Positions 42,946 to 64,000 of a stretch of 64,000 nt of DNA are shown here, piece after piece. The number at the start of each line of letters is the position of its first letter. Positions within the stretch are counted from its first letter, which is position 1. Below the pieces are notes generated by a model that worked only from the letters and a program-made list of their open reading frames with translations, was not told the DNA's origin and made no database searches. The translations under genes and the position numbers were made by a program. The stretch is from Giardia intestinalis (lineage: Eukaryota), in assembly GCA_000002435.2 (NCBI GenBank), contig CM018790.1, one strand, 5' to 3'.

Positions 42946-45104
42946 GCCCCTGCTGCACCGCCTCGCACCAGAGGAGGAATCACGGTCTACAGCCAGAAGG
43001 GCAAAAGAGGCGCGTGGGTGGAAGCGCTCTCCCGATTTTCTTTTCGAGCTCGAACAGAACAGCCGTAGAGACTGTACGAAAACATCCTACAGTACCATCG
43101 AGGCCTCGCACGGAGGGGTTCTGAATGGACGAACGCCTAGGCTGGGAGCCATTCTAGAGCCGATTCTGGCCGAGGAAGGGGCTCCCCGCTTACGGGGGCA
43201 TGGCGGCTCCGCTGGCCACGTACGGCGACAGTTGCCGGGTCAGCGGCCCAGCCAAACCAGCGATGCCGCTGCGGAAGCCACCCCCGGCCCTGTCCCACAC
43301 AGTCGATGCCCTTGGCAGCCGCCTGCTCCAGTCCAGATCCACCCCACCGGCTGCGTGCCAGGGCCAGACATCTAGCAACCACAGAGACACGTCCACCGAG
43401 GCCGACACTGGCTGCACACACCGACCGGCGCGTCGATTCGAGGCACAGACGCGCATTTTTTCTTTTGTCCGGCGAGATTCCGGGCTGCGCTGGCTGCACG
43501 GATGCACGCAGCTGTTCCGCGCCGGCCGGGGCTTTCCGAGGCAGGCCTTGCGCGAGAACGCGACGTCTCGTGCAGGTCCACCGACCCTCTGGCGGGCCCA
43601 CGGCCGCGGAGTGTCCGTCCCTGTTGCGATGCAGTGCACACGGCTTTGTAGCACGTGCAGAGACCCAGTTGCCCTGCCCTGGCTGTGGCTCCTGCGCGCT
43701 GCGGCCAGCCACTGAGACCAGCCCCCATTGGAGCAGGCCACGGCAGGGCCCGCCGGACAAGCTCTCTACATGAGCACATGCTGCACAGCTTAGAGGCGAA
43801 CGCTGCACAGCCCGGCTAGTGCTCGCTGCCCCTATCGCTGCGTGGTACCTCTTCGTGAGACGACTGCGCAAGGCCACCCGATCGAGGGCTACGGCAGGAC
43901 GCAAAGAGTGGACTAGTTCAGGGCGTTGTGCATCTAGTAGGCCTGTGAGTACGCCTAGGTCGTGTATAGCTATTACATCAACATACTCATGTAGGTGGAT
44001 ACAACTGATTGCTCCGAATGGACTGGTTCTTGATGGCGTGGGCTGATGGAAGGACGCATTTGTATTACAGGTCCAAGCATAGAGGGTGGCAGCAGGAAAC
44101 GAAAAGTGGCCTGATTGCTGGTGTGCAGGTAAATGCAGCTATTTACATTTGACTTACCTAGCATACTGGATGATCATACTGATTGGATTCCGATAAAATG
44201 CATGCACGAGACTTACTGGTGTCTACTGATTTAAGAATTGAATGAGCAAACGCTAGGATAAGCTTGGTATGCCAATAGATAAATCACATTTAGGGAGGTA
44301 ACAATGAAATTTGTAGGAATAAAGAGACGCTCATAATATGCTGTTTCGATGATAGTAAAGGCTCTAGCACGAAGTTCATTAATCTATTATCAACAGAGAT
44401 AATAAGAAATCCAGGAGAAATGATAGCGAATCTATAATACACCCCATAAAAGGCTATAAGCACTATGGGATAATTAAGAAATGTGAAGGATATACCAGAG
44501 AATGTTATTTAAAAGGAAAGAAGTGCGTATTCAAAATCAGCAATAGTAACAAGGATAGCCTCGTTGCCAAGGATTCCATCACTGTCATCCTTATTGTCAA
44601 CCTTTCTGTCAGAGGTTCTTTTACTGTAGGAAAGTATAAACATAATCATCTATTTAAGTGGTAAACGCATCGTCTAACATCTGCTCAGCAGCCTTACACA
44701 GAAGTCCCGAAATAAGTAGTCACGGGGCAGAGTCTCCTGACGCTGCCAAATAAGCATATATAGTGCTCCCTCTGCATGGAGCACTGGAGGCCCGGCACGG
44801 AGTGGCCACAACTTCTCGTGGATACAGGCTGGTCGAAGCCGCTGGTGGCTGTATCCTCCAACCCCCTGCTTCAGAGCGTGGCTGCGCATGCTCTGCACGG
44901 CGCCTTCTCCTGCAGTGTCCGTGCGCTCGCCGGATGGAGCGAACCCAGCTAGCTACGCGGCCGCCACTGCAGGCCCCTCTTCACCCTGTATGCAGAAGCG
45001 CTGACCCGGGAAGAGGTGTCCCAGGGAGCCACGGGCAGCTGGTTGGAGTGAAACACGTTGGGACTTTTTGAAAATGGCCCTGTCCCGTGCCGGCCACGCG
45101 GCCT

Positions 45105-45725
45105 CTAGACCAGCGAGGCGAGGAGCTTCTTGATCCCTGGGCGCGCACGGTAGCCATCAGATAGCTCGCGCAGCGGTGGAAACTGGTCCACGAGCTCCGG
45201 ATACTCTGCGTCCGCATAATACAGGACCTCCAGGACCGCGTAGTCCGAATAGAGCGGCTCGGGAGCCAGGCTCCGGAGGCTCAGCACGTCCCGGGTCAGA
45301 ACGGTCAATCCCGGAAGGATCCTGTTCTGTCGGTAGGCCGCGATGCACTCCGAGCGCGTCATCTCTGCCCCAGCGGCAAGGGCCTCTGCCACGGCTTCGG
45401 GCTCCTTCCAGACGGCGGCAAGAAGATCCTCACAGAAGAGCACCAGGGCCCGCGCAGCAGCCTGCACCTGCAATGACGTGCTGTACCGCCCCAGGCTCGC
45501 CCCCAGGTACTCTAGAATGACCATGCCCCCGGCCACCCGCGCTGCGCTGTCTTCCCACACGGGGAGCGTGCACGATGGTGCACCTACCTTCGCCGCGGCC
45601 ACCTGCTCAGCGCTCGCCAAGGGCGCCCACTCGTACCGTATCTCCAGGTCTGCGAGCAGGAGCCGGCACTTCAATGCGGTGCCCCGGGCGTCGTAGTACG
45701 TGAGTCTCGGCGGAACTACGTCCAT
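45105..45725 (-). CDS. glutathione S-transferase-fold protein (sigma/alpha-like cytosolic GST), GC-rich codon usage
   Basis: MDVVPPRLTYYDARGTALKCRLLLADLEIRYE...LPVWEDSAARVAGGMVILEYL aligns to the sigma-GST N-domain (KLTYFNMRGRAEIIRYIFAYLDIQYE...IPILEVDG..SLAIARYL). The C-domain aligns too. The ORF-track start is a TTG; the ATG is at 45725, preceded by 'gggaagtaaa'. Confidence 0.5.
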   Translation of the reverse strand: MDVVPPRLTYYDARGTALKCRLLLADLEIRYEWAPLASAEQVAAAKVGAPSCTLPVWEDSAARVAGGMVILEYLGASLGRYSTSLQVQAAARALVLFCEDLLAAVWKEPEAVAEALAAGAEMTRSECIAAYRQNRILPGLTVLTRDVLSLRSLAPEPLYSDYAVLEVLYYADAEYPELVDQFPPLRELSDGYRARPGIKKLLASLV

Positions 45726-46813
45726 TTTACTTCCCCGGTGGGCTCGTATCAACCGTGCCAAGGTGCGAGGCAACCCCTGGCACGCGGGCCGCCTCTCCCA
45801 GGGGGAGATCCTTGGGTTTCAGTTTACAACCTGAGCACCAGCTTCGTGTAGCTGCTATGCATTGCTAGCTACTACTGCCTGCATAGATAGTGGTGGGGTT
45901 GGGGTGGACACTAGGCTGGCGCGGTTTATGGAGGTCGTCTGCCTCCCGGGTCGCTTGAACCTAGCCGGAGTCTTCCCATTGGACCCTCTAAGTCATATCA
46001 CGAATCATAGGACGGATAAACTAGCCCCTAGCGGGTCAAAAGGGTCGGCAGTGATCGCAGCCACTGTGTCACTCGAGGACCTGTTGAGGCCCGGGACTCT
46101 GCAGAAGCCCCTCACTAGCTCGGTCTTGAAGTCCACGCTCTTGTGTGCCAAGATCCACGTCTTGTTATGCGTGCCGTGCTTTCCAGTACAATCGTGCTTA
46201 TACTTGTCGCCCTCTCTAATGCAGCTTCTAATGCTACCATGACGGGAGTTCTCGCTGTTTTGTACTTCATGTTTGTCAACACGGCCTAGGTGCCCTGCTG
46301 TCTGCTCTGCAGTCGCTTTATCTCCTGCTAAAAGGAAGTGAGAGCTCTTGGGTATCCGGTAAGACGTCCGGGCAAACGCGATAATGCTTCGATGAGTGTA
46401 CGTTAGTCGCATCGGCACAGAGCGCGTGCTAACCGGACGAAGCCATGTGCCTGCTGACTTCTATACAATATTCTAAGGCTATCCGGTCTCTGCATGGCAC
46501 CGCCAGGTGTGTAGTGGGGCCTGTGGCCATTAAGACCCAGAAGAGCCTCTTCTCCTACTTGGCTTCGGAGTCACTCCCAGTAGAGTATTGTTATGAGGCT
46601 GGTGTGCAGAGAAACACCGAATAGTTTGTACCGGTACACATGACCCCTTATCCCCAGACGGCACTCGCCATGGCTAGGCATTCGTAGAACCGCAGCATCG
46701 TGGGCTTGTGCACCGCTCACTGCCCATGCACGTGTAGCTGCAGACACACAAGCCAGTCGAGAGGCGCTTGCTTGCCCGGCTCCCTCATCACTGTTCAGAA
46801 CATCGAACTCCTT

Positions 46814-46893
46814 ATGCGAGCCACCGCCGCCCTGGGCAAGCGGGTCTCCCTCATCCCTGCATCAACCAAGATCAAAACCTAGAGTTCGAACTC
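46814..46893 (+). repeat. 80-bp repeat unit, copy A of an internal inverted pair
   Basis: atgcgagccaccgccgccctgggcaagcgggtctccc...ctagagttcgaactc. About 80% identical to the reverse complement of 48391..48465; the first 35 nt differ at 2 positions. Confidence 0.55.
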
Positions 46894-48390
46894 AGGTGTC
46901 AAGCGACTCTGGTGGGAGAAAAAGAACTTTTGTTCTGCCCTCTTCCCAAGAACGAGACAGGACAACCACGATCAGGGGACGATCATGATACGCTCCACAA
47001 GGCAGCCCCGAGCCGCCTGGAGACCAGACCCTGGCCTTCCTCGAGACCTAGCAGATTGCGTTCCACTGGATGTACATGGGTGGCGTTTGCATGGCGCAGG
47101 GAGACGCAGGCTGATGGGTACAGCGGTCTTGCTCGACATAATGAACTCCAACAGTAGACGGCCTCTGCCAGGCGAGTGTGCCCCGTCCCGAGGAGCTGCG
47201 TCGGGGCCTTCCTCCGGCTGCGACACACGAGGTATCTGGACTCGGTCCCTCAGGGCCCTGCGCATGCTTCTGTGCTGCGGGAGACAGAACCTGCTCGCCA
47301 GGAGCTGAAGGAGAGGCCCCGCTCAGTACCCATGCCGACGACACATTCAGCTTCCATAGTGACGACAAGCCTGGCGAAACGCTATAGCTCGACGGTCAAC
47401 ACTGGGTGTGGGAGCACTGAGGGGCAGGAGGCCTCCTTTCTAACTAGTCTCGAAGGAGCTTCCAAGACAACGAAGAGCCGAAGCTAGTGATGATGCGCCG
47501 ATCATTTGCCACGCTTGTCGAGATGGACCCACACGTGACCTATGTGAATCCCTCGACAGGCAAGTCGGCCCTTGGGGTGCTTGGCTGACAGAGGCGGACT
47601 GATCCCGACCGCACCGAAGAGTGGTAGCGGCTTGGACCACCTGCCGGGCGTCTGCCGCAGTAGCTGGCAGTGTCTGACATCCTCGAGTAGATGGGCGCCA
47701 AGCGAGACGGCCTGAGGGTGAACCAGTCCTGACCGCTCCCGGTGTCTCAGACGACGCCTCTTAGAGAGGTGGCCCTGGACCGACGCCTCGACAGACCGAA
47801 GCATCACCCCAGGTGTGCTGTGCGGTGTGAAGACGGACGTAGTCCGCATCGTCAGCTGAGCCAGACGCACTGCACAGGGTGAGCGTCGACATGATCTCGT
47901 GCTAGGTGATGGACCACCTGCAAGAGCGCACTGCGATCCATGGGCAGAGGGATGGGCCTCTTCCCCGACACCACCGCATGGGATTACTCCATCGGCATCC
48001 ATGAACGCGTACTCTGACTCCAAGACAGAGGCGTACGGGGGGCGCGCTCTCCCGGTCATACTCGGGACCGATGATACAATCCACGAGGAGACGAAGAGGC
48101 ACCCCGAGGAACGGGGTAGACACCCGGGGTCGTGGCGTATCCCATCTTCGTCGTAGAGCATCAGCGCCACAAAGCTACTCCGGAGTACATGGCCAGAGTC
48201 AAGCTTCCAAGGCCAGATCCTGTGACCGACGGCAGGCCCTGATATAGCGGGTGTCCACCCAGGTGCCAGACGATAGTTGACTCCGATGGGTCAGAGGAAG
48301 GGAAGTCCTAGAGGGCACCGCGAGGAGCGGCAGCTTCCAGGGGAAGCGGGAATAGGAGTTCTTCCGCCGGGATCAAGGGCATCCGCCTCT

Positions 48391-48465
48391 CGAACTCTGG
48401 ATTTGGATCTCGGCTGGTACAGGGGCGAGAGAGACTCGCTTGCCCAGGGTGGCGGTGGCTCGCAT
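48391..48465 (-). repeat. copy B (inverted) of the same repeat; with copy A brackets a ~1.5-kb segment
   Basis: The reverse complement reads atgcgagccaccgccaccctgggcaagcgagtctctctcgcccctgtaccagccgagatccaaatccagagttcg. Confidence 0.55.
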
Positions 48466-51400
48466 GGGAAGATTACTCAGATAGCAGGCGACAGCCCCAC
48501 CCCGGCTAAAAAACTTGAGGCAGCCGTTGCACCCGCCGCCCCCAGGACAGAGCTTCTGCACGCATGGCCAGCTGCCCTCGTCAGTCCGGTCTACTGGTCC
48601 AATAGTCTGGGGACCCTTTACGCCGTTTTCTGGCATACGATGTATCGCAACTGCTCATGGGAGTAAGCAGTATGAAAAGGCAATTGCATGTGTGGACAGC
48701 GTGTTATGCTCGTCTCAGAGGACCGATGTGTCTAAATACGGATCGCTGTACTGAGCCACACGCCCCACTGTCTTGCGCCAGTGACTGCCTCCACCACTGC
48801 ACTTGCTACAATGGAGCTGTGTCGGCCCAACAGATTGAACATGCCCCATATCGGCTCCCTCTGACGATGCGTACACGCCGCATAAGGTCTGATAGTAGAG
48901 CGGACACCGTGTGCCGAGGCGTCTGCCATTGATGGGAGACAGCACTTGGTTGCACCAGAGGTGCCTTTATGTAGGCCTACAATCTCTGTGCCTGCCCATC
49001 CACCGGTTGTAATGACAACTGCACACTCGGAAAGGCGCTATGGAAAGCTGCCTTTCAAGATGAGACGTAAACCCACATATAAAGCCAGAAGCAGAACCTT
49101 GTGCACAAACTGTTATGATCCTAGTGTGGTGACCGGTTTGGACTGCGGCACGCTCCTCGCCTATCTTATGTTCGTTTGCATGGTCGCTGCTAATGTTGAA
49201 CAGGACTGCGAGGAGATCTGTCTTTGGCTGCGCTCATCTTATAACACTTACCCCTTGATGACACACCTTAGCAAAGGAGGATGTCAGCCAGGTGCGTAGA
49301 AGGCTGCCCGTGCATGACGATTCCTGGAGAACTGGTTCATACAGAGAAGGTAGAGGTGACTAGCGGACCAGTTGGGCAAGGCTGACACCAGAGAGGCCAG
49401 CCACCGACCTGGATTGCAATAGGGACGCCTGTAGTGTCTTTCTTCCCTTCGGGTGTAGAAAGGTCGTGAGGCCCGCGGACAAGCTAGACGCTGCTTTCTG
49501 ATTTTATGCATTTGTAGCAGCATAGTGTTTATAGGGGTCTGCTTTGCCTGAGGCCGAGGACGTTCGCTTCCTCCTCGTATACGGACGAAGATCGGTTATA
49601 AGGATACACTGTGCAGGCTGGTACCAGTCGACGTGGTTGCTGTCCACAAATGTCTCGCCTGCGTCTTCTCATGGCAGATGATTACTAGCAGCGCTCTCAG
49701 CCCACGTGGCTAAGTCTACGGTGCATCTCCATTTCGGTCAAGGGTTGTATACGCATTACGTAGTCTGATTGATCATCAGCCAGGATAGTGTGGTCCACTC
49801 CTGTCCCCTGCTTGTCCATCTCGTGCAACTACTGCTGATGGCTTTTCTGGGTCAGTGGGTGCTTCCGTCAGTCCCACAAAGGAATGTGTCATGCAGACGG
49901 CCACTACAGGCAAGAGTCTTGTCTATCAAGAAAAGGGTCAATCGGTTTACTGCGTGGGGATCCTCTGTGCGTCTCATATAAGCCCGGCAGACCTTGTGCC
50001 CCCAGTATCTCCTCACAAGCCCCACCAGGCTCTTTTACCGTCTGGAATATCGCTACTGCCAAGCACCTTAGCTTCACTTGGCCACCCAGGGCGTTGACCC
50101 TTTGCAGCGCACTGTGGGCGTACTCACTGTGGGAGATGCACAATCAGCATTGGTCTTCTCAGCTCATCGTCTGTATGGTACTATGCTGCTTCTCAGCACA
50201 ACCCATTCTGTCGACCAGCAGGCCTTCAGACCAGGCAGCATCCCACCAAGGGGCGGTAGCAGGGACCGTGACGCGTATCTCCACCAAGGCACGGCCTCCT
50301 GGGGCATGAAGCGGGACCTCTGCCATCCTGTGGCCCTACTGATTCCTCGGATAGCAGAGATCGGAGCAGCCTAGGCTAGCGCCTTTGGGTCTCCATCTGT
50401 TCTCGTTGTCTGAGGTATACTTGACTCCAGAGACTCAGAAGGGTGCTGTACTATGTTCGTGCCTACGAGTCTTAGCCAGGCAGGGCTACCCTCTTGGAGA
50501 TTGCGCTGAGGTAGCCACATACCTGGAGCTCACCACAGCGGACCCACAGGGTCCAATCCATGGAACCCTTACCTGTCGAATGCAGGCCGTAATTGCAGCC
50601 CCACTGGTGCAGACTTTCTTAGAATAACCGGTCGACTATAGAGCCCCCCCCCACTCAGTCCACGTGAATGGACCACTCTCATCGATGGCCTACCTTGCAC
50701 GCCGAACGATCCCTACAGGCGAACAAAAATCATCCAGCCCGTAGCAGTGGACATCCTCTACACCGATGAATGGATGATCACAGCAGCCGCTTTCCTATTG
50801 AAGATTCTCCAGCCACTGAGGCCCAGGCCGGCCTCCTGCAGGATTCTTAGCAGGATCGTGCCCGATGCATGTTTGTGGCACTCCCCTCAAGGTGTATTCT
50901 GTTGGACCTTCGCTTCCTATACTGGCCTGCGAACATCGAGCCCTTCTAGCGGGGCCATACTGGAGATCACAAGGATATGGTGTCTTCGGAGACTATCCGG
51001 CTTCTGAGCCACACAATAGGGGCCCACTTCTCGCAGCAGCATCACGGAGAGGTGTATAGAGCTATACCATACCCTCTACCAGGTGACATGATGCATAAAT
51101 TAAGGGTAGGACACTTACACCGATCGGCATATCTACCCATGACCAGACACAGATTGGCCCGAAGGTAGCAATTAAATGTTGCTCGACACCCTTATCAGTG
51201 GATGGGCGCCCAACTACCCTGGTACCCGTACGAGGCCACAAGGGGCGCTGGGTCATAGATCTACTTAATGGCTGAGAAAGCGGCATGGACGCATCAGACC
51301 CCCATTCTTTCTATTCAAGTAGCCCACGACAGAGAGCCCTTTGACACTCCACACCCACAGGTTCGGGGTGCTGCGGGCAATCGTACTCCACTATTGCTTG

Positions 51401-52223
51401 CAGCGGATGGCATCAGGATAACCTTGGGTGGGAGAGAGTTGACTGGCCCAGAAAGCAGCGGTTTGGATAGCGTTTCCTCTCTGCCCAGGCTTGGAAGGTC
51501 TAGCCTGCGCCTTCTGCGCTTCACCTGACACCTCGTTGTGTACTGGGGTGGCTTATTAGTATTTACTCCAAAAGATCAAAACTAGCGCCATGTGCACTTA
51601 GCAGGCCGGTGCGCCTCGTTAGCTAGTTTATGCTGGCTTACGCCTTCCACAGACTCTAGCGGCTGCTGGGATCTTCTCTCGGGATCCAGCAAAGGTTTGT
51701 CTTTGAGCGTAGCTCCCCTGCGACAGCAAAGGGTCGCGGGCATGATCTGGTGGGTGGGAATACTAGGAGCGGATAGGAGAGTGCCGGCATACATGGGCCC
51801 GTAGAGCTCTAACCAGCGCAGGGAAGTGCAGGTGTCTGGCTCTCCGGAAATGCAGAGGCGCCGGTAGCGGGCATGGGCACAGTGGGGGCGCCCGGGCTGT
51901 CCTCCGATTGGCCGCGGAGAAGGGGGATGCCCGGCGCACGGGACGGTTCTGCTGTTTGCTTTTAGAATTTCTACTTCCTTGCGTGCTTTGCAAGGAGTGC
52001 GGGGCTCCTCGGATGTCGCTTGGCCAGGCCTGGAGGGCCCGCGATGGACGAGGTGGTGGGCTTATATAATGAACGCGTTTGGCATTCGCTGGGCTCCTCC
52101 TTCCTAGACCGAGGTATCGTAGGAGTAGGGTCTCTTCGGACTACCTGCATAGCACAGTCAGATAGACGTTTTTAGCTCTAACTATCGGACTCTTATCTAT
52201 GTAATAAGCCGAGAGGGATATCA

Positions 52224-52991: not shown

Positions 52992-53003
52992 ATGTACTTA
53001 GGT

Positions 53004-53010
53004 AGTAAAC
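53004..53010 (+). promoter_or_regulatory. putative polyadenylation signal AGTAAAC (AGTRAAY) 13 nt after the VSP stop
   Basis: tag atgtacttaggtAGTAAACgcg; mirrored on the minus strand at 55693..55699 for the second VSP copy. Confidence 0.45.
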
Positions 53011-55711
53011 GCGTTACTTTATGTAGCTTATGTAGATGTGCTGCTAGGCTCACTTGCTGGTGTGTCCAGAAGTTTCACGAGTAAATCCTCGTTCAAGTCC
53101 TGGCTGTCCAAAGACGAGAACTGATTGTGGATAACATGACGGAGAGTCCTCTCCAGTGATGCATCCAGAGCCTGGTGCGCTCCTCTGCCGTTTCGCAGGC
53201 GTGTGCTCAGGCTGAGTATGCACGTCGGTCCTTTCGGGGTTCAGGCCTTCTCGTGGACTCTCTGCTCTACCAGCGGTGTCTCTCCTTGGTCTTCCTTCAC
53301 GGTGGGTGAAGCTTGGATCGCCGTCTTTTTTAGATGCCCCGTCTGTCAGGGGCTGCCATCGGGCTCTCCGCTGGCCGCCCCTCGGTGTCCGTCCGGCTGT
53401 GTCCCGGGTCAGCGCTTCTACAGTCGCGGTCACGTAGGTCTCAGTGGGCCAGCTGGGGGGTGGGGCGGGGGTATGGGCGGTGAGGCTGGAGGGGACCGGG
53501 TGGGGGCTGAGGTGGGGTGTCCGTATGTGATCCTGGGTCCGGTGGGTCATTGCGGTGGTGGGTGATCCCCGCTCTGTTTGCTAAGGTGGTTGTGTCTGAT
53601 CACCAGCCTGCGTTGCACTCCCGAGACAGAGGCACCGACGATCGTGTCGTGTCCCCCGACTGAGCGCCTCCCTTAGCCCCTGCATGTCTCAGGCAGTACT
53701 GCTGCTCTGTCTGGCTGGTGCGTGAAGGGTGAGGCAGGCCATCGCAGCCCCTCCTGATGCTCTGCGCGGGTCTGCTGAGCCCCTGGCATGCCCTGTCCAG
53801 TGCCTCGACGGGGAGTTCGCCTCGGGCCAGCAGGGGTGTGGATGACCTTGTGAATGGGATGGGGTTCTCTCAGGCCTCTAGTGTGATGGCCCAGAAGACT
53901 GGCACGGTGGGGCACCAGTGACTGCACTGTCCCCGTGGTCAGCTGTGCTGCTCCTGGTGGGTCCTTGTCATGGAGCGCTGTGTGTTGTTCATAGGCAGAG
54001 GTGATCCCTCTTGGTCTCAAGATGCTCTACCAGCAGAGAGAAGCACGCTGAGGGTCACCCAACATCACCTGCTGTGTCCTCTTGGGAGTTCCCGATGTGA
54101 TCTATCAGGACCTTGACACCTCCTCGTGGCTCTGATGACCCCTCGGGGAGAGCCGGCATCCTATACTGAGGGGCGTACACCTTCCTGCATGAGCTGGGCC
54201 CCACTGCACTGCCCCCAAGGAGGTCTGCTATGAGAGGCAGTGGGATGATTGACAGCCCCTCAGAGTGCGGTGGAGGGTGCTCGTGGTCATCTCTGTGACC
54301 GGGCATCACTCATGATGGTCGGCTCTGTGCCTTATGGTGCTCAGAGACCACCTGTGCTCCATCGCCTGCTGGACAGCCGGGCCTCTTGTGGCGTCCGAAG
54401 GTCTCCTCACTCCTCTGGTCACTGCCCCCTCGGATCATCGGTGGAGGCCAGCGAGTCTTCGGAGTCTGGTGCCTGCCTGGGTGTCATGGGGGGCTGGCAG
54501 CTGTCAAGGCTCTGCCACTGCTCACCTGCCTGGAGTGTGCCTCCCTTGGGCCTGCTTTGCTGTGCTGCTTGAGTCCTCTGGCTTCTATCAGGCCCTGGTT
54601 GTGAGGGTGACCCCACCTGGCCTTCTGATGCCCCTGTGGATGAGCATAGCAATGTGTCTGGCTGGGGATCTCTAGTGCCCGTGTCTGTCACTGCCTCTCG
54701 GGTGCTCGGGTAGTTGCCTGGCGCTCTCGTATGGGCACACAGTCAGCGTATGTGGGTGGTCCTCCTGCACTCGTGTCCGTCTGTGTGCACTGTCACTCAG
54801 TCTCGAGAGCAGGCCAGTGCAGTCACCAGGGCTGCTGTCAGAGGGAGTCGTCTGCCACTACCATCGCTCGAGCAGCCCCTGCAGATCAGGCTGGTTGCTG
54901 TGCACCCTCATGGCAGGGCTGCTTGGCTCCCTTGGTCTCCTCTCTGTCCCGGTGTGCACGGCTCCTTCGGGTGGCTGACGGGGTAGTGGCCTCCGGTGAG
55001 TCTGCACTGGGAGGCACCGAGGAGGGAGGACAGCTAGGCTGGCACCACTCTCTGACTCCTGAGGGTTGCCTGGATGGAGGCACTCACGAGTCCACAGAGG
55101 GGTGAGTTATAGATACACAGCCCCCAGTCACCACAGCTGCGATCACCCCAGTCTATCGAGTGGCCAGGGGCACAGACAACACCGCTCCAATGGCCCACCA
55201 GTCCCCTCCAGCCTCACCGTCCCATACTCCCGCCCCACCCACCATCCGAACCCACTGAGACCCAGGTGACTGCGACCGTAGAGCGCTGACTCGAGTCACA
55301 GCCGGACGGACACCGAGGGGCCCAGCCAGGGGAGAGCCCCGACAGCAATCACCGAGTCAGACGGGGCATCTAAAAAAGACGGCGATCCAAGCTTCACCCA
55401 CCGTGAAGGAAGACCAAGGAGAGACACCGCTGGTAGAGCAGAGAGTCCACGAGAAGGCCTGAACCCCGAAAGGACCGACGTGCATACTCAGCCTGAGCAC
55501 ACGCCTGCGAAACGGCAGAGGAGCGCACCAGGCTCTGGATGCATCACTGGAGAGGACTCTCCGTCATGTTATCCACAATCAGTTCTCGTCTTTGGACAGC
55601 CAGGACTTGAACGAGGATTTACTCGTGAAACTTCTGGACACACCAGCAAGTGAGCCTAGCAGCACATCTACATAAGCTACATAAAGTAACGCGTTTACTA
55701 CCTAAGTACAT

Positions 55712-56479
55712 CTACGCCTTGCCCCGGCAGAGGAACCACCAGCAGAGGAACCCAACGAGACCACCAACAACTATGACAGCAGCCACGGCGATGCCCGCAA
55801 TGGCGCCGGTAGAAAGGCCGCTCTTGTTGACGCTAGAAGGCACACATTGGTTGTCTCTTAAACTGAATCTGTCACTACATGTCTTACATTTTGCTACCGT
55901 TTCATCTCCAGCTGGAGCATCACACGTCGCGCAGTTCTCCACCCCCACGTATTGCTTATCTCCGGTGAGAGTCACCCCTGTCGTGTCCGAGCACGGGATA
56001 ACAGACTGCTCGGTAGCCTTGGCGTTTGGTGCAGCAAAGTAGCCTTCTCCCGCCTCTGTGCAGGCTCCGTTAGATGCGCGCTTACAAAGGCTCTGCCCCA
56101 CGCCTGTGCTGGCGTCGTAGCATCCGCCCTTGTATAGGAAGTAAGTGGCGTCTGTTCCGCACTGCTCACACACAGTGGAGTCCTGTCCAGGAGGGTCATT
56201 ATTGGCCAGCTTGCACCCTGCGGTCGCAATTGATGGGGTGCCCTGTGCGGTGCAGACTCCGTTTATGGGGACAAACCCTGCGTTGCACTGCTTGCACACG
56301 GTATCCGCGCCGACCTGCTCTTCCATCCCGTCCTTGCAGTTCCCTGCAGCATATGCATTATCACGATTGCCTGTATCTCTATTAGACCGAGATCCCGAGC
56401 GTAGATATTCAGAGTGGTGATTTGTTGTATGCCGGACAGCGAGCGTACTTAGCACAAGGTAGAAGGCTATGAGTAACAT
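55712..56479 (-). CDS. VSP: variant-specific surface protein (VSP), identical second copy, convergent with 52224..52991
   Basis: Identical 255-aa translation ending ...FLCWWFLCRGKA on the minus strand. Confidence 0.85.
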   Translation of the reverse strand: MLLIAFYLVLSTLAVRHTTNHHSEYLRSGSRSNRDTGNRDNAYAAGNCKDGMEEQVGADTVCKQCNAGFVPINGVCTAQGTPSIATAGCKLANNDPPGQDSTVCEQCGTDATYFLYKGGCYDASTGVGQSLCKRASNGACTEAGEGYFAAPNAKATEQSVIPCSDTTGVTLTGDKQYVGVENCATCDAPAGDETVAKCKTCSDRFSLRDNQCVPSSVNKSGLSTGAIAGIAVAAVIVVGGLVGFLCWWFLCRGKA

Positions 56480-59400
56480 TGATATCCCTCTCGGCTTATT
56501 ACATAGATAAGAGTCCGATAGTTAGAGCTAAAAACGTCTATCTGACTGTGCTATGCAGGTAGTCCGAAGAGACCCTACTCCTACGATACCTCGGTCTAGG
56601 AAGGAGGAGCCCAGCGAATGCCAAACGCGTTCATTATATAAGCCCACCACCTCGTCCATCGCGGGCCCTCCAGGCCTGGCCAAGCGACATCCGAGGAGCC
56701 CCGCACTCCTTGCAAAGCACGCAAGGAAGTAGAAATTCTAAAAGCAAACAGCAGAACCGTCCCGTGCGCCGGGCATCCCCCTTCTCCGCGGCCAATCGGA
56801 GGACAGCCCGGGCGCCCCCACTGTGCCCATGCCCGCTACCGGCGCCTCTGCATTTCCGGAGAGCCAGACACCTGCACTTCCCTGCGCTGGTTAGAGCTCT
56901 ACGGGCCCATGTATGCCGGCACTCTCCTATCCGCTCCTAGTATTCCCACCCACCAGATCATGCCCGCGACCCTTTGCTGTCGCAGGGGAGCTACGCTCAA
57001 AGACAAACCTTTGCTGGATCCCGAGAGAAGATCCCAGCAGCCGCTAGAGTCTGTGGAAGGCGTAAGCCAGCATAAACTAGCTAACGAGGCGCACCGGCCT
57101 GCTAAGTGCACATGGCGCTAGTTTTGATCTTTTGGAGTAAATACTAATAAGCCACCCCAGTACACAACGAGGTGTCAGGTGAAGCGCAGAAGGCGCAGGC
57201 TAGACCTTCCAAGCCTGGGCAGAGAGGAAACGCTATCCAAACCGCTGCTTTCTGGGCCAGTCAACTCTCTCCCACCCAAGGTTATCCTGATGCCATCCGC
57301 TGCAAGCAATAGTGGAGTACGATTGCCCGCAGCACCCCGAACCTGTGGGTGTGGAGTGTCAAAGGGCTCTCTGTCGTGGGCTACTTGAATAGAAAGAATG
57401 GGGGTCTGATGCGTCCATGCCGCTTTCTCAGCCATTAAGTAGATCTATGACCCAGCGCCCCTTGTGGCCTCGTACGGGTACCAGGGTAGTTGGGCGCCCA
57501 TCCACTGATAAGGGTGTCGAGCAACATTTAATTGCTACCTTCGGGCCAATCTGTGTCTGGTCATGGGTAGATATGCCGATCGGTGTAAGTGTCCTACCCT
57601 TAATTTATGCATCATGTCACCTGGTAGAGGGTATGGTATAGCTCTATACACCTCTCCGTGATGCTGCTGCGAGAAGTGGGCCCCTATTGTGTGGCTCAGA
57701 AGCCGGATAGTCTCCGAAGACACCATATCCTTGTGATCTCCAGTATGGCCCCGCTAGAAGGGCTCGATGTTCGCAGGCCAGTATAGGAAGCGAAGGTCCA
57801 ACAGAATACACCTTGAGGGGAGTGCCACAAACATGCATCGGGCACGATCCTGCTAAGAATCCTGCAGGAGGCCGGCCTGGGCCTCAGTGGCTGGAGAATC
57901 TTCAATAGGAAAGCGGCTGCTGTGATCATCCATTCATCGGTGTAGAGGATGTCCACTGCTACGGGCTGGATGATTTTTGTTCGCCTGTAGGGATCGTTCG
58001 GCGTGCAAGGTAGGCCATCGATGAGAGTGGTCCATTCACGTGGACTGAGTGGGGGGGGGCTCTATAGTCGACCGGTTATTCTAAGAAAGTCTGCACCAGT
58101 GGGGCTGCAATTACGGCCTGCATTCGACAGGTAAGGGTTCCATGGATTGGACCCTGTGGGTCCGCTGTGGTGAGCTCCAGGTATGTGGCTACCTCAGCGC
58201 AATCTCCAAGAGGGTAGCCCTGCCTGGCTAAGACTCGTAGGCACGAACATAGTACAGCACCCTTCTGAGTCTCTGGAGTCAAGTATACCTCAGACAACGA
58301 GAACAGATGGAGACCCAAAGGCGCTAGCCTAGGCTGCTCCGATCTCTGCTATCCGAGGAATCAGTAGGGCCACAGGATGGCAGAGGTCCCGCTTCATGCC
58401 CCAGGAGGCCGTGCCTTGGTGGAGATACGCGTCACGGTCCCTGCTACCGCCCCTTGGTGGGATGCTGCCTGGTCTGAAGGCCTGCTGGTCGACAGAATGG
58501 GTTGTGCTGAGAAGCAGCATAGTACCATACAGACGATGAGCTGAGAAGACCAATGCTGATTGTGCATCTCCCACAGTGAGTACGCCCACAGTGCGCTGCA
58601 AAGGGTCAACGCCCTGGGTGGCCAAGTGAAGCTAAGGTGCTTGGCAGTAGCGATATTCCAGACGGTAAAAGAGCCTGGTGGGGCTTGTGAGGAGATACTG
58701 GGGGCACAAGGTCTGCCGGGCTTATATGAGACGCACAGAGGATCCCCACGCAGTAAACCGATTGACCCTTTTCTTGATAGACAAGACTCTTGCCTGTAGT
58801 GGCCGTCTGCATGACACATTCCTTTGTGGGACTGACGGAAGCACCCACTGACCCAGAAAAGCCATCAGCAGTAGTTGCACGAGATGGACAAGCAGGGGAC
58901 AGGAGTGGACCACACTATCCTGGCTGATGATCAATCAGACTACGTAATGCGTATACAACCCTTGACCGAAATGGAGATGCACCGTAGACTTAGCCACGTG
59001 GGCTGAGAGCGCTGCTAGTAATCATCTGCCATGAGAAGACGCAGGCGAGACATTTGTGGACAGCAACCACGTCGACTGGTACCAGCCTGCACAGTGTATC
59101 CTTATAACCGATCTTCGTCCGTATACGAGGAGGAAGCGAACGTCCTCGGCCTCAGGCAAAGCAGACCCCTATAAACACTATGCTGCTACAAATGCATAAA
59201 ATCAGAAAGCAGCGTCTAGCTTGTCCGCGGGCCTCACGACCTTTCTACACCCGAAGGGAAGAAAGACACTACAGGCGTCCCTATTGCAATCCAGGTCGGT
59301 GGCTGGCCTCTCTGGTGTCAGCCTTGCCCAACTGGTCCGCTAGTCACCTCTACCTTCTCTGTATGAACCAGTTCTCCAGGAATCGTCATGCACGGGCAGC

Positions 59401-60237
59401 CTTCTACGCACCTGGCTGACATCCTCCTTTGCTAAGGTGTGTCATCAAGGGGTAAGTGTTATAAGATGAGCGCAGCCAAAGACAGATCTCCTCGCAGTCC
59501 TGTTCAACATTAGCAGCGACCATGCAAACGAACATAAGATAGGCGAGGAGCGTGCCGCAGTCCAAACCGGTCACCACACTAGGATCATAACAGTTTGTGC
59601 ACAAGGTTCTGCTTCTGGCTTTATATGTGGGTTTACGTCTCATCTTGAAAGGCAGCTTTCCATAGCGCCTTTCCGAGTGTGCAGTTGTCATTACAACCGG
59701 TGGATGGGCAGGCACAGAGATTGTAGGCCTACATAAAGGCACCTCTGGTGCAACCAAGTGCTGTCTCCCATCAATGGCAGACGCCTCGGCACACGGTGTC
59801 CGCTCTACTATCAGACCTTATGCGGCGTGTACGCATCGTCAGAGGGAGCCGATATGGGGCATGTTCAATCTGTTGGGCCGACACAGCTCCATTGTAGCAA
59901 GTGCAGTGGTGGAGGCAGTCACTGGCGCAAGACAGTGGGGCGTGTGGCTCAGTACAGCGATCCGTATTTAGACACATCGGTCCTCTGAGACGAGCATAAC
60001 ACGCTGTCCACACATGCAATTGCCTTTTCATACTGCTTACTCCCATGAGCAGTTGCGATACATCGTATGCCAGAAAACGGCGTAAAGGGTCCCCAGACTA
60101 TTGGACCAGTAGACCGGACTGACGAGGGCAGCTGGCCATGCGTGCAGAAGCTCTGTCCTGGGGGCGGCGGGTGCAACGGCTGCCTCAAGTTTTTTAGCCG
60201 GGGTGGGGCTGTCGCCTGCTATCTGAGTAATCTTCCC

Positions 60238-60312
60238 ATGCGAGCCACCGCCACCCTGGGCAAGCGAGTCTCTCTCGCCCCTGTACCAGCCGAGATCCAA
60301 ATCCAGAGTTCG
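60238..60312 (+). repeat. mirror copy of repeat B in the right arm
   Basis: atgcgagccaccgccaccctgggcaagcgagtctctctcgcc... read directly at 60238. Confidence 0.55.
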
Positions 60313-61809
60313 AGAGGCGGATGCCCTTGATCCCGGCGGAAGAACTCCTATTCCCGCTTCCCCTGGAAGCTGCCGCTCCTCGCGGTGCCCTCTAGGACTT
60401 CCCTTCCTCTGACCCATCGGAGTCAACTATCGTCTGGCACCTGGGTGGACACCCGCTATATCAGGGCCTGCCGTCGGTCACAGGATCTGGCCTTGGAAGC
60501 TTGACTCTGGCCATGTACTCCGGAGTAGCTTTGTGGCGCTGATGCTCTACGACGAAGATGGGATACGCCACGACCCCGGGTGTCTACCCCGTTCCTCGGG
60601 GTGCCTCTTCGTCTCCTCGTGGATTGTATCATCGGTCCCGAGTATGACCGGGAGAGCGCGCCCCCCGTACGCCTCTGTCTTGGAGTCAGAGTACGCGTTC
60701 ATGGATGCCGATGGAGTAATCCCATGCGGTGGTGTCGGGGAAGAGGCCCATCCCTCTGCCCATGGATCGCAGTGCGCTCTTGCAGGTGGTCCATCACCTA
60801 GCACGAGATCATGTCGACGCTCACCCTGTGCAGTGCGTCTGGCTCAGCTGACGATGCGGACTACGTCCGTCTTCACACCGCACAGCACACCTGGGGTGAT
60901 GCTTCGGTCTGTCGAGGCGTCGGTCCAGGGCCACCTCTCTAAGAGGCGTCGTCTGAGACACCGGGAGCGGTCAGGACTGGTTCACCCTCAGGCCGTCTCG
61001 CTTGGCGCCCATCTACTCGAGGATGTCAGACACTGCCAGCTACTGCGGCAGACGCCCGGCAGGTGGTCCAAGCCGCTACCACTCTTCGGTGCGGTCGGGA
61101 TCAGTCCGCCTCTGTCAGCCAAGCACCCCAAGGGCCGACTTGCCTGTCGAGGGATTCACATAGGTCACGTGTGGGTCCATCTCGACAAGCGTGGCAAATG
61201 ATCGGCGCATCATCACTAGCTTCGGCTCTTCGTTGTCTTGGAAGCTCCTTCGAGACTAGTTAGAAAGGAGGCCTCCTGCCCCTCAGTGCTCCCACACCCA
61301 GTGTTGACCGTCGAGCTATAGCGTTTCGCCAGGCTTGTCGTCACTATGGAAGCTGAATGTGTCGTCGGCATGGGTACTGAGCGGGGCCTCTCCTTCAGCT
61401 CCTGGCGAGCAGGTTCTGTCTCCCGCAGCACAGAAGCATGCGCAGGGCCCTGAGGGACCGAGTCCAGATACCTCGTGTGTCGCAGCCGGAGGAAGGCCCC
61501 GACGCAGCTCCTCGGGACGGGGCACACTCGCCTGGCAGAGGCCGTCTACTGTTGGAGTTCATTATGTCGAGCAAGACCGCTGTACCCATCAGCCTGCGTC
61601 TCCCTGCGCCATGCAAACGCCACCCATGTACATCCAGTGGAACGCAATCTGCTAGGTCTCGAGGAAGGCCAGGGTCTGGTCTCCAGGCGGCTCGGGGCTG
61701 CCTTGTGGAGCGTATCATGATCGTCCCCTGATCGTGGTTGTCCTGTCTCGTTCTTGGGAAGAGGGCAGAACAAAAGTTCTTTTTCTCCCACCAGAGTCGC
61801 TTGACACCT

Positions 61810-61889
61810 GAGTTCGAACTCTAGGTTTTGATCTTGGTTGATGCAGGGATGAGGGAGACCCGCTTGCCCAGGGCGGCGGTGGCTCGCAT
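61810..61889 (-). repeat. mirror copy of repeat A in the right arm
   Basis: Reverse complement of gagggagacccgcttgcccagggcggcggtggctcgcat at ~61850-61889. Confidence 0.55.
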
Positions 61890-62977
61890 AAGGAGTTCGA
61901 TGTTCTGAACAGTGATGAGGGAGCCGGGCAAGCAAGCGCCTCTCGACTGGCTTGTGTGTCTGCAGCTACACGTGCATGGGCAGTGAGCGGTGCACAAGCC
62001 CACGATGCTGCGGTTCTACGAATGCCTAGCCATGGCGAGTGCCGTCTGGGGATAAGGGGTCATGTGTACCGGTACAAACTATTCGGTGTTTCTCTGCACA
62101 CCAGCCTCATAACAATACTCTACTGGGAGTGACTCCGAAGCCAAGTAGGAGAAGAGGCTCTTCTGGGTCTTAATGGCCACAGGCCCCACTACACACCTGG
62201 CGGTGCCATGCAGAGACCGGATAGCCTTAGAATATTGTATAGAAGTCAGCAGGCACATGGCTTCGTCCGGTTAGCACGCGCTCTGTGCCGATGCGACTAA
62301 CGTACACTCATCGAAGCATTATCGCGTTTGCCCGGACGTCTTACCGGATACCCAAGAGCTCTCACTTCCTTTTAGCAGGAGATAAAGCGACTGCAGAGCA
62401 GACAGCAGGGCACCTAGGCCGTGTTGACAAACATGAAGTACAAAACAGCGAGAACTCCCGTCATGGTAGCATTAGAAGCTGCATTAGAGAGGGCGACAAG
62501 TATAAGCACGATTGTACTGGAAAGCACGGCACGCATAACAAGACGTGGATCTTGGCACACAAGAGCGTGGACTTCAAGACCGAGCTAGTGAGGGGCTTCT
62601 GCAGAGTCCCGGGCCTCAACAGGTCCTCGAGTGACACAGTGGCTGCGATCACTGCCGACCCTTTTGACCCGCTAGGGGCTAGTTTATCCGTCCTATGATT
62701 CGTGATATGACTTAGAGGGTCCAATGGGAAGACTCCGGCTAGGTTCAAGCGACCCGGGAGGCAGACGACCTCCATAAACCGCGCCAGCCTAGTGTCCACC
62801 CCAACCCCACCACTATCTATGCAGGCAGTAGTAGCTAGCAATGCATAGCAGCTACACGAAGCTGGTGCTCAGGTTGTAAACTGAAACCCAAGGATCTCCC
62901 CCTGGGAGAGGCGGCCCGCGTGCCAGGGGTTGCCTCGCACCTTGGCACGGTTGATACGAGCCCACCGGGGAAGTAAA

Positions 62978-63598
62978 ATGGACGTAGTTCCGCCGAGACT
63001 CACGTACTACGACGCCCGGGGCACCGCATTGAAGTGCCGGCTCCTGCTCGCAGACCTGGAGATACGGTACGAGTGGGCGCCCTTGGCGAGCGCTGAGCAG
63101 GTGGCCGCGGCGAAGGTAGGTGCACCATCGTGCACGCTCCCCGTGTGGGAAGACAGCGCAGCGCGGGTGGCCGGGGGCATGGTCATTCTAGAGTACCTGG
63201 GGGCGAGCCTGGGGCGGTACAGCACGTCATTGCAGGTGCAGGCTGCTGCGCGGGCCCTGGTGCTCTTCTGTGAGGATCTTCTTGCCGCCGTCTGGAAGGA
63301 GCCCGAAGCCGTGGCAGAGGCCCTTGCCGCTGGGGCAGAGATGACGCGCTCGGAGTGCATCGCGGCCTACCGACAGAACAGGATCCTTCCGGGATTGACC
63401 GTTCTGACCCGGGACGTGCTGAGCCTCCGGAGCCTGGCTCCCGAGCCGCTCTATTCGGACTACGCGGTCCTGGAGGTCCTGTATTATGCGGACGCAGAGT
63501 ATCCGGAGCTCGTGGACCAGTTTCCACCGCTGCGCGAGCTATCTGATGGCTACCGTGCGCGCCCAGGGATCAAGAAGCTCCTCGCCTCGCTGGTCTAG
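62978..63598 (+). CDS. glutathione S-transferase-fold protein, second identical copy
   Basis: Mirror of 45105..45725 with identical translation. Confidence 0.5.
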   Translation: MDVVPPRLTYYDARGTALKCRLLLADLEIRYEWAPLASAEQVAAAKVGAPSCTLPVWEDSAARVAGGMVILEYLGASLGRYSTSLQVQAAARALVLFCEDLLAAVWKEPEAVAEALAAGAEMTRSECIAAYRQNRILPGLTVLTRDVLSLRSLAPEPLYSDYAVLEVLYYADAEYPELVDQFPPLRELSDGYRARPGIKKLLASLV

Positions 63599-64000
63599 AG
63601 GCCGCGTGGCCGGCACGGGACAGGGCCATTTTCAAAAAGCCCCAACGTGTTTCACTCCAACCAGCTGCCCGTGGCTCCCTGGGACACCTCTTCCCGGGTC
63701 AGCGCTTCTGCATACAGGGTGAAGAGGGGCCTGCAGTGGCGGCCGCGTAGCTAGCTGGGTTCGCTCCATCCGGCGAGCGCACGGACACTGCAGGAGAAGG
63801 CGCCGTGCAGAGCATGCGCAGCCACGCTCTGAAGCAGGGGGTTGGAGGATACAGCCACCAGCGGCTTCGACCAGCCTGTATCCACGAGAAGTTGTGGCCA
63901 CTCCGTGCCGGGCCTCCAGTGCTCCATGCAGAGGGAGCACTATATATGCTTATTTGGCAGCGTCAGGAGACTCTGCCCCGTGACTACTTATTTCGGGACT

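What the first reader, a model, noticed from the sequence alone, without database searches (positions are those of the whole stretch)
44703..64000. Giant palindrome: near-perfect inverted arms of at least 8.6 kb around a ~2-kb spacer
Every ORF-track entry between 44.7 and 53.0 kb reappears with identical translation on the opposite strand, at mirror position 108703-x. I confirmed direct reverse-complement identity at both ends of the arms. I found a single mismatch (45063 a vs 63640 c, which shows as V/A in the mirrored ORFs). The arms carry VSP, GST-fold and nested-repeat copies in mirror order. A hairpin-capable structure of this size is rare. It could mediate gene conversion, amplification or chromosome breakage at a VSP locus. 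It could also be an assembly fold-back artefact.
Basis: seen in the sequence. Interest (0 to 1): 0.85.

Follow-up and report, generated by a model that had tools for sequence, protein, structure and literature searches.

The report
Known Giardia inverted VSP gene pair
The giant palindrome is real. It is one of about twenty published mirror-image duplications around surface-antigen (VSP) genes in the Giardia WB reference genome, so it is neither an assembly error nor a new kind of structure.

Summary
Arms 44703-53345 and 55358-64000 (8,643 nt) are reverse complements with one mismatch, around a 2,012-nt spacer.

The window is chromosome 2 of Giardia intestinalis WB C6. The arms carry the identical tail-to-tail pair vsp47.1/47.2 (GL50803_00d117204/00117204, 255 aa). 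Adam et al. 2010 list this pair (3' divergence 354 nt, ORF distance 2721). Xu et al. 2020 list it too (255 aa, 2720 bp). My measurements are 354 and 2720. A fold-back artefact is therefore very unlikely.

The right arm is cut by the window end. A 317-aa gene at 41992-42945 exists in two identical copies on this chromosome, with accessions in mirror order. Independent contigs break at about 41.07-41.2 kb. The arms are therefore probably about 12.3 kb long.

Inside the spacer, about 150-190 nt at each end form a decayed inverted repeat (78-86% identity). Related contigs show the same "3' flank, conserved non-coding core, inverted 3' flank" module beside a different VSP. The perfect arms are therefore younger than this module. 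They were made or homogenised by recombination anchored in it. That step is inferred, not shown.

Novelty: already known. Interest: low to moderate.

The parts
44703..53345 (.). Left arm of the palindrome, the part whose partner lies inside the window
   Evidence: 8,643 nt, one mismatch to the reverse complement of 55358-64000.
55358..64000 (.). Right arm, cut off by the window end
41071..44702 (.). Probable outer continuation of the left arm. This is inferred, because its mirror copy would lie beyond 64000, at about 64001-67632.
   Evidence: the 317-aa protein of 41992-42945 has two identical copies on the same 1.54-Mb contig. Accession order is KAE8302022 (317 aa), 2023 (VSP), 2024 (GST-like), 2025 (317 aa), which is mirror order; contigs L007 and L008 start at 41071, L002 ends at 41100 and L001 ends at 41194. 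Against this, L006 runs through that point (40502-44748).
53346..55357 (.). Spacer (2,012 nt), non-coding and 58-60% GC
   Evidence: No Pfam match, no Rfam match, no excess RNA folding. Reading frames are not kept between versions.
53361..53536 (.). Decayed inverted repeat at the left end of the spacer
   Evidence: 53361-53504 against 55194-55339, 86% identity over 148 columns; 78% over MAFFT columns 73-255.
55162..55339 (.). Decayed inverted repeat at the right end of the spacer
53575..54975 (.). Conserved non-coding core of the spacer module
   Evidence: 88-97% identity per 100 nt to L009, except in two windows (about 77% and 79%) and the window holding the 47-nt indel. The VSP 3' flank is 71-87% identical; also present in L010 and L011; at least 8 distinct versions in metagenome assemblies.
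52224..52991 (+). VSP gene, left copy (vsp47 pair; 255 aa)
   Evidence: PF03302 at E=2e-30; ends in CRGKA; identical to KAE8302023/KAE8302558 and XP_001708276/XP_001708278; initiator CAATGTT at 52222-52228 and VSP poly(A) motif ACTTAGGTAGTAAAC at 52996-53010.
55712..56479 (-). VSP gene, right copy. It converges on the left copy, with 2,720 nt between the ORFs.
   Evidence: Xu Table 2: d117204/117204, 255 aa, 2720 bp.
45105..45725 (-). GST-like gene, left copy (206 aa)
   Evidence: GST_N_2 at E=6e-6; identical to KAE8302024/XP_001708273, 'Glutathione S-transferase-like protein'.
62978..63598 (+). GST-like gene, right copy
   Evidence: Mirror of 45105-45725.
41992..42945 (+). Hypothetical 317-aa gene (GL50803_00117191/117192), in the inferred outer part of the arm
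   Evidence: No Pfam match.
41219..41292 (+). tRNA-Ala(AGC), about 150 nt inside the probable outer boundary
   Evidence: (68 bits).
46814..48465 (.). Nested 1.65-kb segment bracketed by a 76-nt inverted repeat of 84% identity. Its mirror copy is at 60238-61889.
   Evidence: Contigs of related lineages break at it.
45063..45063 (.). The only arm difference: A on the left, G on the right at mirror site 63640
   Evidence: The related lineage (L007/L008) has G, so the A is the derived state.

Best explanation
This is the published tail-to-tail identical VSP pair vsp47.1/47.2 (GL50803_00d117204/00117204) on chromosome 2 of Giardia intestinalis WB C6. It is a real inverted segmental duplication. 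The duplicated unit is much larger than the VSP gene. It covers at least 8.6 kb and probably about 12.3 kb per arm. It carries the VSP with about 6.5 kb of gene-poor GC-rich upstream DNA, a GST-like gene, a 317-aa hypothetical gene and probably a tRNA-Ala.

Between the copies lies a module shared with other VSP loci. The module is a roughly 0.5-kb VSP 3' flank, a conserved non-coding core of about 1.4-1.7 kb, and the same flank inverted.

Inferred mechanism: this module, with its old and diverged inverted repeat, came first. Homologous recombination between its two repeat copies (arm-to-arm gene conversion, or a fold-back break-induced replication event) then copied one flank onto the other side. 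That produced or re-homogenised the perfect arms, with the inner crossover at 53345/55358 inside the old repeat. The result is two identical copies of the antigen gene and its neighbours. With a 2-kb spacer it should behave as a fairly stable inverted repeat and not as a cruciform. The stability point rests on general knowledge from yeast inverted-repeat studies.
For: Identity of the locus:
- Exact protein matches to WB C6 accessions on a 1,539,535-bp contig.
- Xu et al. 2020 Table 2 lists chr 2, d117204/117204, '-> <-', 255 aa, 2720 bp.
- Adam et al. 2010 Table 5 lists vsp47 with 3' divergence 354 and distance 2721. Their Additional file 1 gives vsp47.1/47.2 = GL50803_117203/117204, chr 2, 255 aa.
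- I measure 354 and 2720.

Real, not an artefact:
- Two independent assemblies agree.
- The spacer is unique.
- L004 crosses the left arm-spacer junction, L009 spans flank, core and inverted flank in one contig, and L011 covers the right side.

Arm extension:
-.

Older repeat and younger arms:
- The arms differ at 1 of 8,643 sites, while the adjacent 150-190 nt are only 78-86% identical.
- In that stretch L004 groups with the WB left side (83%) and not the right side (75%). The left/right split is therefore at least as old as the split between the lineages.

Shared module:
- L009 has a different VSP on the left and a Mec-17 acetyltransferase gene on the right, yet the same flank, core and inverted flank. 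Its own inverted repeat is 87% identical and its core is 88-97% identical to WB.
- The 2022 bioRxiv paper reports highly conserved intergenic regions between two other pairs.
- The twelve tail-to-tail pairs in Xu Table 2 all have 2526-2813 bp between ORFs.

Recurrent homogenisation:
- The chr 5 GST-like paralogues are 205/206 identical to each other but 96% identical to the chr 2 pair.
- Gene-conversion tracts in assemblage A Giardia are GC-rich and enriched for VSPs. The arms are 54-60% GC against 44-49% in the left flank.
Against: - The sequence beyond 64000 was not available, so the outer boundary and the mirror copy of the 317-aa gene are inferred from accession order and contig ends. One Logan contig (L006) runs uninterrupted through the proposed boundary at 41.07-41.2 kb and stops at 44748.
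- I could not show that the spacer module is multi-copy within WB itself. All extra versions come from metagenome assemblies, and they could be orthologues from other assemblages.
- Ongoing conversion and a single recent copying event cannot be told apart from one genome.
- L009 could be a decayed former pair and not the ancestral solo state.
Confidence: 0.8

Rival explanations
1. A single, very recent inverted duplication with no ongoing arm-to-arm exchange. The arms are identical only because they are young. Adam et al. 2010 proposed 'gene duplication and transposition events'.
For: There is only one difference in 8,643 nt, and it is the derived state. Adam et al. consider the pairs recent duplications. 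The boundary inside the decayed repeat is also what one template switch between the old repeat copies would leave.
Against: About twenty such pairs in WB and seven in G. muris are all at or near 100% identity. Without homogenisation that would need many simultaneous recent events. The chr 5 GST-like pair shows the same pattern of higher identity within a locus than between loci. The decayed inner repeat shows that the inverted arrangement itself is old.
Confidence: 0.3
2. Assembly artefact: a fold-back or chimeric long read, or a collapsed dispersed repeat placed twice.
For: The arms are perfect, and short reads cannot be placed uniquely in them. The 2022 preprint notes that duplicated VSPs were once doubted as artefacts of the older assembly.
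Against: The same pair with the same measurements appears in the Sanger and the PacBio/optical-map assemblies. PacBio read N50 was 12.7 kb, 10% of reads exceeded 20 kb, coverage was 200x, and no misassemblies were seen in split-read checks. A 2,012-nt unique spacer with a decayed inverted repeat is not what a missed-adapter fold-back gives. Related-lineage contigs contain the junctions. According to Adam et al. 2010, the vsp1267 pair had already been reported in the literature as an inverted tail-to-tail pair before genome sequencing.
Confidence: 0.02
3. A functional hairpin locus. Read-through from the convergent identical VSP genes would give antisense or hairpin RNA, which would feed the RNAi pathway that silences VSPs.
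For: The identical genes converge and are 2.7 kb apart. RNAi involvement in VSP control is established knowledge (Prucca et al. 2008, from my own knowledge; alluded to).
Against: Each copy has its own VSP poly(A) motif directly after the stop codon. Paired VSPs can be the dominant expressed antigen, for example VSP1267 and the 50229 pair. Seven pairs are head-to-head, where this logic does not apply. No RNA data were examined here.
Confidence: 0.08
4. The spacer module is, or was, a mobile foldback-type element with roughly 0.5-kb terminal inverted repeats. It inserts 3' of VSP genes and drives pair formation.
For: The module is found beside different VSPs with different right flanks. It has its own inverted repeats. 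There are several diverged versions. The 2022 preprint reports transposon relics around pairs.
Against: There is no transposase or any Pfam domain in the core or the arms. No target-site duplications were looked for or seen. The repeat begins within the VSP 3' flank, which fits duplication of VSP-adjacent DNA as well as it fits an element terminus.
Confidence: 0.15

Closest known systems
Identical inverted VSP pairs of Giardia intestinalis WB (vsp1267; Adam et al. 2010 BMC Genomics 11:424; Xu et al. 2020 Sci Data 7:38; bioRxiv 10.1101/2022.03.07.483299)
   Same: This is that very locus (vsp47.1/47.2 = d117204/117204). [quoted passage not shown]
   Different: There is no difference in kind. The papers tabulate the genes and the spacing, and Adam et al. 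left the 5' divergence of tail-to-tail pairs undetermined. Here the arm extends more than 7.5 kb upstream of the VSP, through a GST-like gene, and probably to about 12.3 kb. Xu et al. mention multi-gene duplications of up to 20 kbp, and the preprint mentions duplicated hypothetical proteins near duplicated VSPs.
Identical head-to-head and tail-to-tail VSP pairs of Giardia muris (PMC7641422)
   Same: Identical VSP genes in inverted pairs, which shows the arrangement is a feature of the genus.
   Different: In G. muris the intervening DNA carries NEK, ankyrin or zinc-finger genes or pseudogenes. Here the spacer is non-coding.
Large palindromes kept identical by arm-to-arm gene conversion, such as human Y-chromosome palindromes P1-P8 (Skaletsky et al. 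2003 and Rozen et al. 2003, from my own knowledge)
   Same: Kilobase-scale arms at about 99.99% identity around a unique spacer, and multi-copy genes carried in the arms.
   Different: These arms are far smaller (about 12 kb against 9 kb to 1.45 Mb). Conversion here is inferred from a decayed inner repeat and paralogue patterns. It has not been shown by cross-species comparison of both arms.
Inverted duplications formed by fold-back priming or template switching at short or diverged inverted repeats (Tetrahymena rDNA palindrome, yeast and tumour palindromic amplification; from my own knowledge)
   Same: A pre-existing inverted repeat lies at the centre, and the perfect arms start inside it.
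   Different: There is no evidence here of amplification beyond two copies, of a break site, or of a telomere-proximal position. The outer boundary needs a second switch that I could not examine.

Membership tests
Giardia identical inverted VSP pair (tail-to-tail type) | Two VSP ORFs with identical coding sequence, each with a VSP domain and a CRGKA tail | tested here: met
   52224-52991(+) and 55712-56479(-) are identical, match PF03302 at E=2e-30 and end in CRGKA.
Giardia identical inverted VSP pair (tail-to-tail type) | Convergent orientation with 2-4 kb of intervening DNA (2.5-2.8 kb in the tail-to-tail pairs of Xu Table 2) | tested here: met
   2,720 nt between the ORFs.
Giardia identical inverted VSP pair (tail-to-tail type) | Flanks identical up to an abrupt divergence point 139-729 nt from the coding region | tested here: met
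   divergence 354 nt after the stop codon, the value tabulated for vsp47.
Giardia identical inverted VSP pair (tail-to-tail type) | The locus is one of the catalogued pairs of WB C6 | tested here: met
   accessions KAE8302023/KAE8302558; chr 2 d117204/117204; vsp47.1/47.2 = GL50803_117203/117204.
Palindrome maintained by arm-to-arm gene conversion (Y-chromosome type) | Arms nearly identical within a genome while the orthologous arms of a related lineage are clearly diverged, with the palindrome predating the split | tested here: inconclusive
   WB arms are 99.99% identical, while related-lineage contigs are 88% (L004/L005) and 96% (L007) identical to them. The decayed inner repeat predates the split. 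Both arms of the other lineage could not be obtained.
Assembly fold-back artefact | Seen in one assembly only, with no spacer or a very small one, and junctions not found in independent data | tested here: not met
   (two assemblies and an optical map). (2,012-nt unique spacer). (junctions in independent contigs of related lineages).
Foldback or terminal-inverted-repeat transposable element (for the spacer module) | Sharp common termini, target-site duplications, and a transposase or many copies with unrelated flanks | tested here: inconclusive
   Inverted repeats and two different flank contexts were seen. No transposase domain was found. Termini and target-site duplications were not examined, and copy number in WB could not be tested with these tools.

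The most novel reading that the evidence does not exclude
The roughly 2.4-2.7-kb module between tail-to-tail VSP genes is a conserved non-coding core of about 1.4-1.7 kb flanked by an old inverted repeat of about 0.5 kb. On this reading it is a dedicated cis-acting element. It would sit 3' of VSP genes, also beside solo VSPs, and repeatedly nucleate and re-homogenise large palindromes. That would make it the engine that duplicates Giardia surface-antigen loci. The core would be conserved because it does something, for example as a fork barrier, an origin, a terminator or a recombination hotspot.
Probability: 0.2. Interest if true: 0.6.

Novelty: already known. Interest (0 to 1): 0.27.

Why it matters
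It settles that a striking 19-kb (probably about 26.5-kb) palindrome in the Giardia reference genome is a catalogued, genuine feature of the antigen-gene repertoire and not a misassembly.

The smaller additions are these:
- The duplicated unit reaches far beyond the VSP gene.
- A decayed inverted repeat lies just inside the perfect arms.
- The spacer core is a conserved non-coding module that is also found beside a different VSP.

These points give a concrete, testable model for how Giardia makes its identical VSP pairs and keeps them identical. The original authors called these pairs 'an interesting, but cryptic observation'.

Tried and rejected
- Exact-protein look-ups for the VSP, the GST-like gene, a tubulin gene and the TTG-start form of the 317-aa ORF found no gene positions. 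The NCBI Giardia chromosomes appear not to be in the position index. I therefore could not fetch sequence beyond 64000 or any other VSP pair of WB.
- None of 16 ORFs lying in or overlapping the spacer is in the protein collection by exact sequence.
- The ORF that crosses the arm-spacer boundary has no homologues.
- The profile search with spacer ORFs returned only metagenome proteins, so copy number within WB stayed untested.
- Two scans of JGI metagenome contigs with conserved spacer words found nothing.
- Pfam on spacer and arm ORFs, Rfam, and RNA folding of the most conserved spacer block gave nothing. A protein-coding or structured-RNA reading of the spacer is therefore rejected for now.
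- The tandem-repeat search found nothing relevant.
- I considered whether the window end is a chromosome end, which would make this a terminal palindrome. I rejected that because a second identical copy of the 317-aa gene lies on the same chromosome, in mirror accession order after the right-hand GST-like gene.
- The bacterial promoter/terminator scan is not meaningful for Giardia and was not used.


Full report
**1. The observation**

The repeat finder reports one inverted repeat, with arms 44703-53345 and 55358-64000. Each arm is 8,643 nt and they are 2,012 nt apart. A base-by-base comparison finds exactly one mismatch: 45063 A against the complement of 63640, which is G. Ungapped mirror identity falls to the random level at once inside 53346/55357. 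The window has no Ns. Since 44703 pairs with base 64000, the arm length is a lower bound set by the window end.

**2. What the arms carry**

- ORF 52224-52991(+) and its mirror 55712-56479(-) are a 255-aa Giardia variant-specific surface protein. It matches PF03302 at E=2e-30 and ends in CRGKA. It has the VSP initiator CAATGTT at the start codon and the VSP polyadenylation motif ACTTAGGTAGTAAAC five bases after the stop.
- ORF 45105-45725(-), mirrored at 62978-63598(+), is a 206-aa GST-like protein.
- The rest of the arm has no Pfam-recognisable coding capacity.
- The arms and spacer are GC-rich (54-60%), against 44-49% in the gene-dense left flank.
- A nested 76-nt inverted repeat of 84% identity brackets 1.5 kb at 46814-48465 and is mirrored in the other arm.

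**3. Source and prior knowledge**

Exact-sequence look-up places the VSP, the GST-like protein and a 317-aa hypothetical protein in Giardia intestinalis WB clone C6, on a 1,539,535-bp contig.

- Xu et al. 2020 (PMC7000408), Table 2, list on chromosome 2 the pair d117204/117204, '-> <-', 255 aa, distance 2720 bp. I measure 2,720 nt between the ORFs.
- Adam et al. 2010 (PMC2996952), Table 5, list vsp47 as a tail-to-tail identical pair with 3' divergence 354 nt and distance 2721. Their Additional file 1 gives vsp47.1/47.2 = GL50803_117203/117204, chromosome 2, 255 aa. I measure 354 nt from the stop codon to the end of the arm.
- WB has 19-20 such pairs, 12-13 of them tail-to-tail with 2526-2813 bp between ORFs.
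- A 2022 preprint notes that the pairs were once doubted as artefacts and are confirmed in the long-read assembly. It notes that hypothetical proteins near duplicated VSPs are duplicated too. It also notes that the intergenic regions of two other pairs are highly conserved with each other.
- G. muris has seven identical pairs.

The finding is therefore a catalogued feature.

**4. Artefact or real**

Two independent assemblies give the same structure and the same measurements. One is the 2007 Sanger assembly. The other is the 2020 PacBio assembly, built at 200x with read N50 12.7 kb and 10% of reads over 20 kb, checked against optical maps and by split-read alignment.

A missed-adapter fold-back would give no spacer. 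Here there is a unique 2-kb spacer with a decayed repeat at its ends.

Metagenome contigs of related Giardia lineages contain the junctions:
- L004 runs from the VSP through the WB arm end and 287 nt into the left side of the spacer.
- L009 spans VSP 3' end, flank, core and inverted flank in one contig.
- L011 covers the right half of the core, the inverted flank and an inverted VSP 3' end.

I give the artefact reading about 2%.

**5. True extent of the arms (inferred)**

The 317-aa protein encoded at 41992-42945, left of the visible arm, has two identical copies on the same chromosome (GL50803_00117191/117192). The GenBank accessions run KAE8302022 (317 aa), 2023 (VSP), 2024 (GST-like), 2025 (317 aa). 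The 'd'-tagged left VSP copy is numbered out of this run (KAE8302558), and I assume the same holds for the left GST-like copy. On that reading, this is the order expected if the right arm continues past 64000 through a mirror copy of that gene.

Independent contigs end or start at 41071 (L007, L008), 41100 (L002) and 41194 (L001). A boundary near 41071 would give arms of about 12.3 kb and a palindrome of about 26.5 kb. A tRNA-Ala(AGC) at 41219-41292 would lie just inside it.

One Logan contig (L006, 40502-44748) crosses this point without a break, so the boundary is not proven. Its end at 44748 may reflect homology to the chromosome 5 GST-like paralogues. That is a guess.

**6. The spacer is a module with its own, older inverted repeat**

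- A gapped comparison shows 53361-53504 and 55194-55339 are inverted copies at 86% identity. This is 78% over the wider MAFFT block.
- In that block the related contig L004 is closer to the WB left side (83%) than to the right side (75%). The left/right copies therefore split at least as long ago as the two lineages did.
- The arms next to this block differ at 1 site in 8,643. At that site the other lineage has the right-arm base, so the left-arm A is a new mutation.
- L009 carries a different VSP on the left. On the right it has no VSP, but a Mec-17-type acetyltransferase gene and a cysteine-rich protein gene. It still has the same flank, core and inverted flank. Its own inverted repeat is 87% identical.
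- Between WB and L009 the core 53575-54975 is 88-97% identical per 100 nt, apart from two windows at about 77% and 79% and the window holding the 47-nt indel. This is more conserved than the VSP 3' flank (71-87%), apart from a 47-nt and an approximately 80-nt indel.
- The reading frames are not kept between versions. No Pfam, Rfam or RNA-folding signal was found. The core is conserved non-coding DNA of unknown role.
- At least eight distinct versions of its most conserved block occur in metagenome assemblies. That fits a multi-copy family better than a single locus, but it does not prove one.

**7. Mechanism**

*Shown:*
- The inverted duplication exists.
- It is larger than the gene.
- An older, diverged inverted repeat lies directly inside the perfect arms.
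- The same module occurs in another VSP context.

*Inferred:* recombination between the two old repeat copies copied one side onto the other, with the inner crossover at 53345/55358. This could be repeated arm-to-arm gene conversion. It could also be a fold-back break-induced replication event.

*Support for recurrence:*
- All of the roughly 20 pairs are at or near identity.
- The two GST-like paralogues on chromosome 5 are 205/206 identical to each other but 96% identical to the chromosome 2 pair.
- A 2025 population study finds gene-conversion tracts in assemblage A to be GC-rich and enriched for VSPs.

From one genome I cannot separate ongoing conversion from one recent event.

A regulatory hairpin-RNA role is unlikely. 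Each copy has its own poly(A) motif, and paired VSPs can be the dominant expressed antigen.

From general knowledge of inverted repeats in yeast, a 2-kb spacer makes cruciform extrusion and breakage far less likely than for short-spacer palindromes.

**8. Verdict**

The finding is already known. The modest additions are the arm length, the decayed inner repeat and the conserved spacer core. These are worth a genome-wide check, but they do not change the classification.

Noticed in passing
window 41219-41292 (+): A tRNA-Ala(AGC) gene sits about 150 nt inside the place where several independent contigs break (41071-41194). That place is the probable outer edge of the palindrome. If so, the tRNA is duplicated with the arm.
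   Followed up: partly
window 46814-48465 (mirror 60238-61889); L005:1-163, L004 start, L007 end: A 1.5-kb segment is bracketed by a 76-nt inverted repeat of 84% identity. Contigs of a related lineage break exactly at this repeat. L005 joins the reverse complement of 46890-46976, through a repeat copy that resembles the left one (71/76), to 48466 onward. This is either an inversion polymorphism of the segment or an assembly-graph mis-join.
   Followed up: partly
window 53575-54975; L009:1000-2580, L010, L011: The spacer core is 88-97% identical per 100-nt window (two windows at about 77-79%) between this locus and a contig carrying a different VSP. It includes blocks of about 60 nt with one or two differences across four versions. 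Reading frames are broken, and no Pfam, Rfam or RNA-folding signal was found. It is conserved non-coding DNA of unknown function.
   Followed up: partly
proteins P0001 and P0007 (WB chromosome 5, 4.02-Mb contig): Two further GST-like genes lie on chromosome 5, with accessions KAE8304971 and KAE8304978. They are 205/206 identical to each other and 96% identical to the chromosome 2 pair. They may flank another VSP palindrome.
   Followed up: no
window about 41200-42400: There is a sharp compositional change, from 44-49% GC in the gene-dense left flank to 54-60% GC across the arms and spacer. This agrees with published remarks that VSP surroundings are gene-poor and GC-rich, and with GC-biased gene conversion.
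   Followed up: no
window 45063 / 63640: The single arm difference lies 42 nt downstream of the GST-like stop codon, next to a run of G. The related lineage (L007/L008) has G, so the left-arm A is either a new mutation or a consensus error that short-read polishing cannot resolve inside a perfect repeat.
   Followed up: yes
L009:3101-3697 (-) and 4266-6071 (+): In the metagenome contig L009 the spacer module is followed by a Mec-17/alpha-tubulin acetyltransferase-like gene (PF05301, E=3e-30) and a cysteine-rich VSP-like gene, not by a second VSP copy. This is either a solo VSP plus the module, or a decayed former pair.
   Followed up: partly
window 23299-24909 (+): A 536-aa cysteine-rich protein with weak VSP-domain matches (E=1e-14) lies in the unique left flank. 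It has no partner copy and no spacer module nearby.
   Followed up: no
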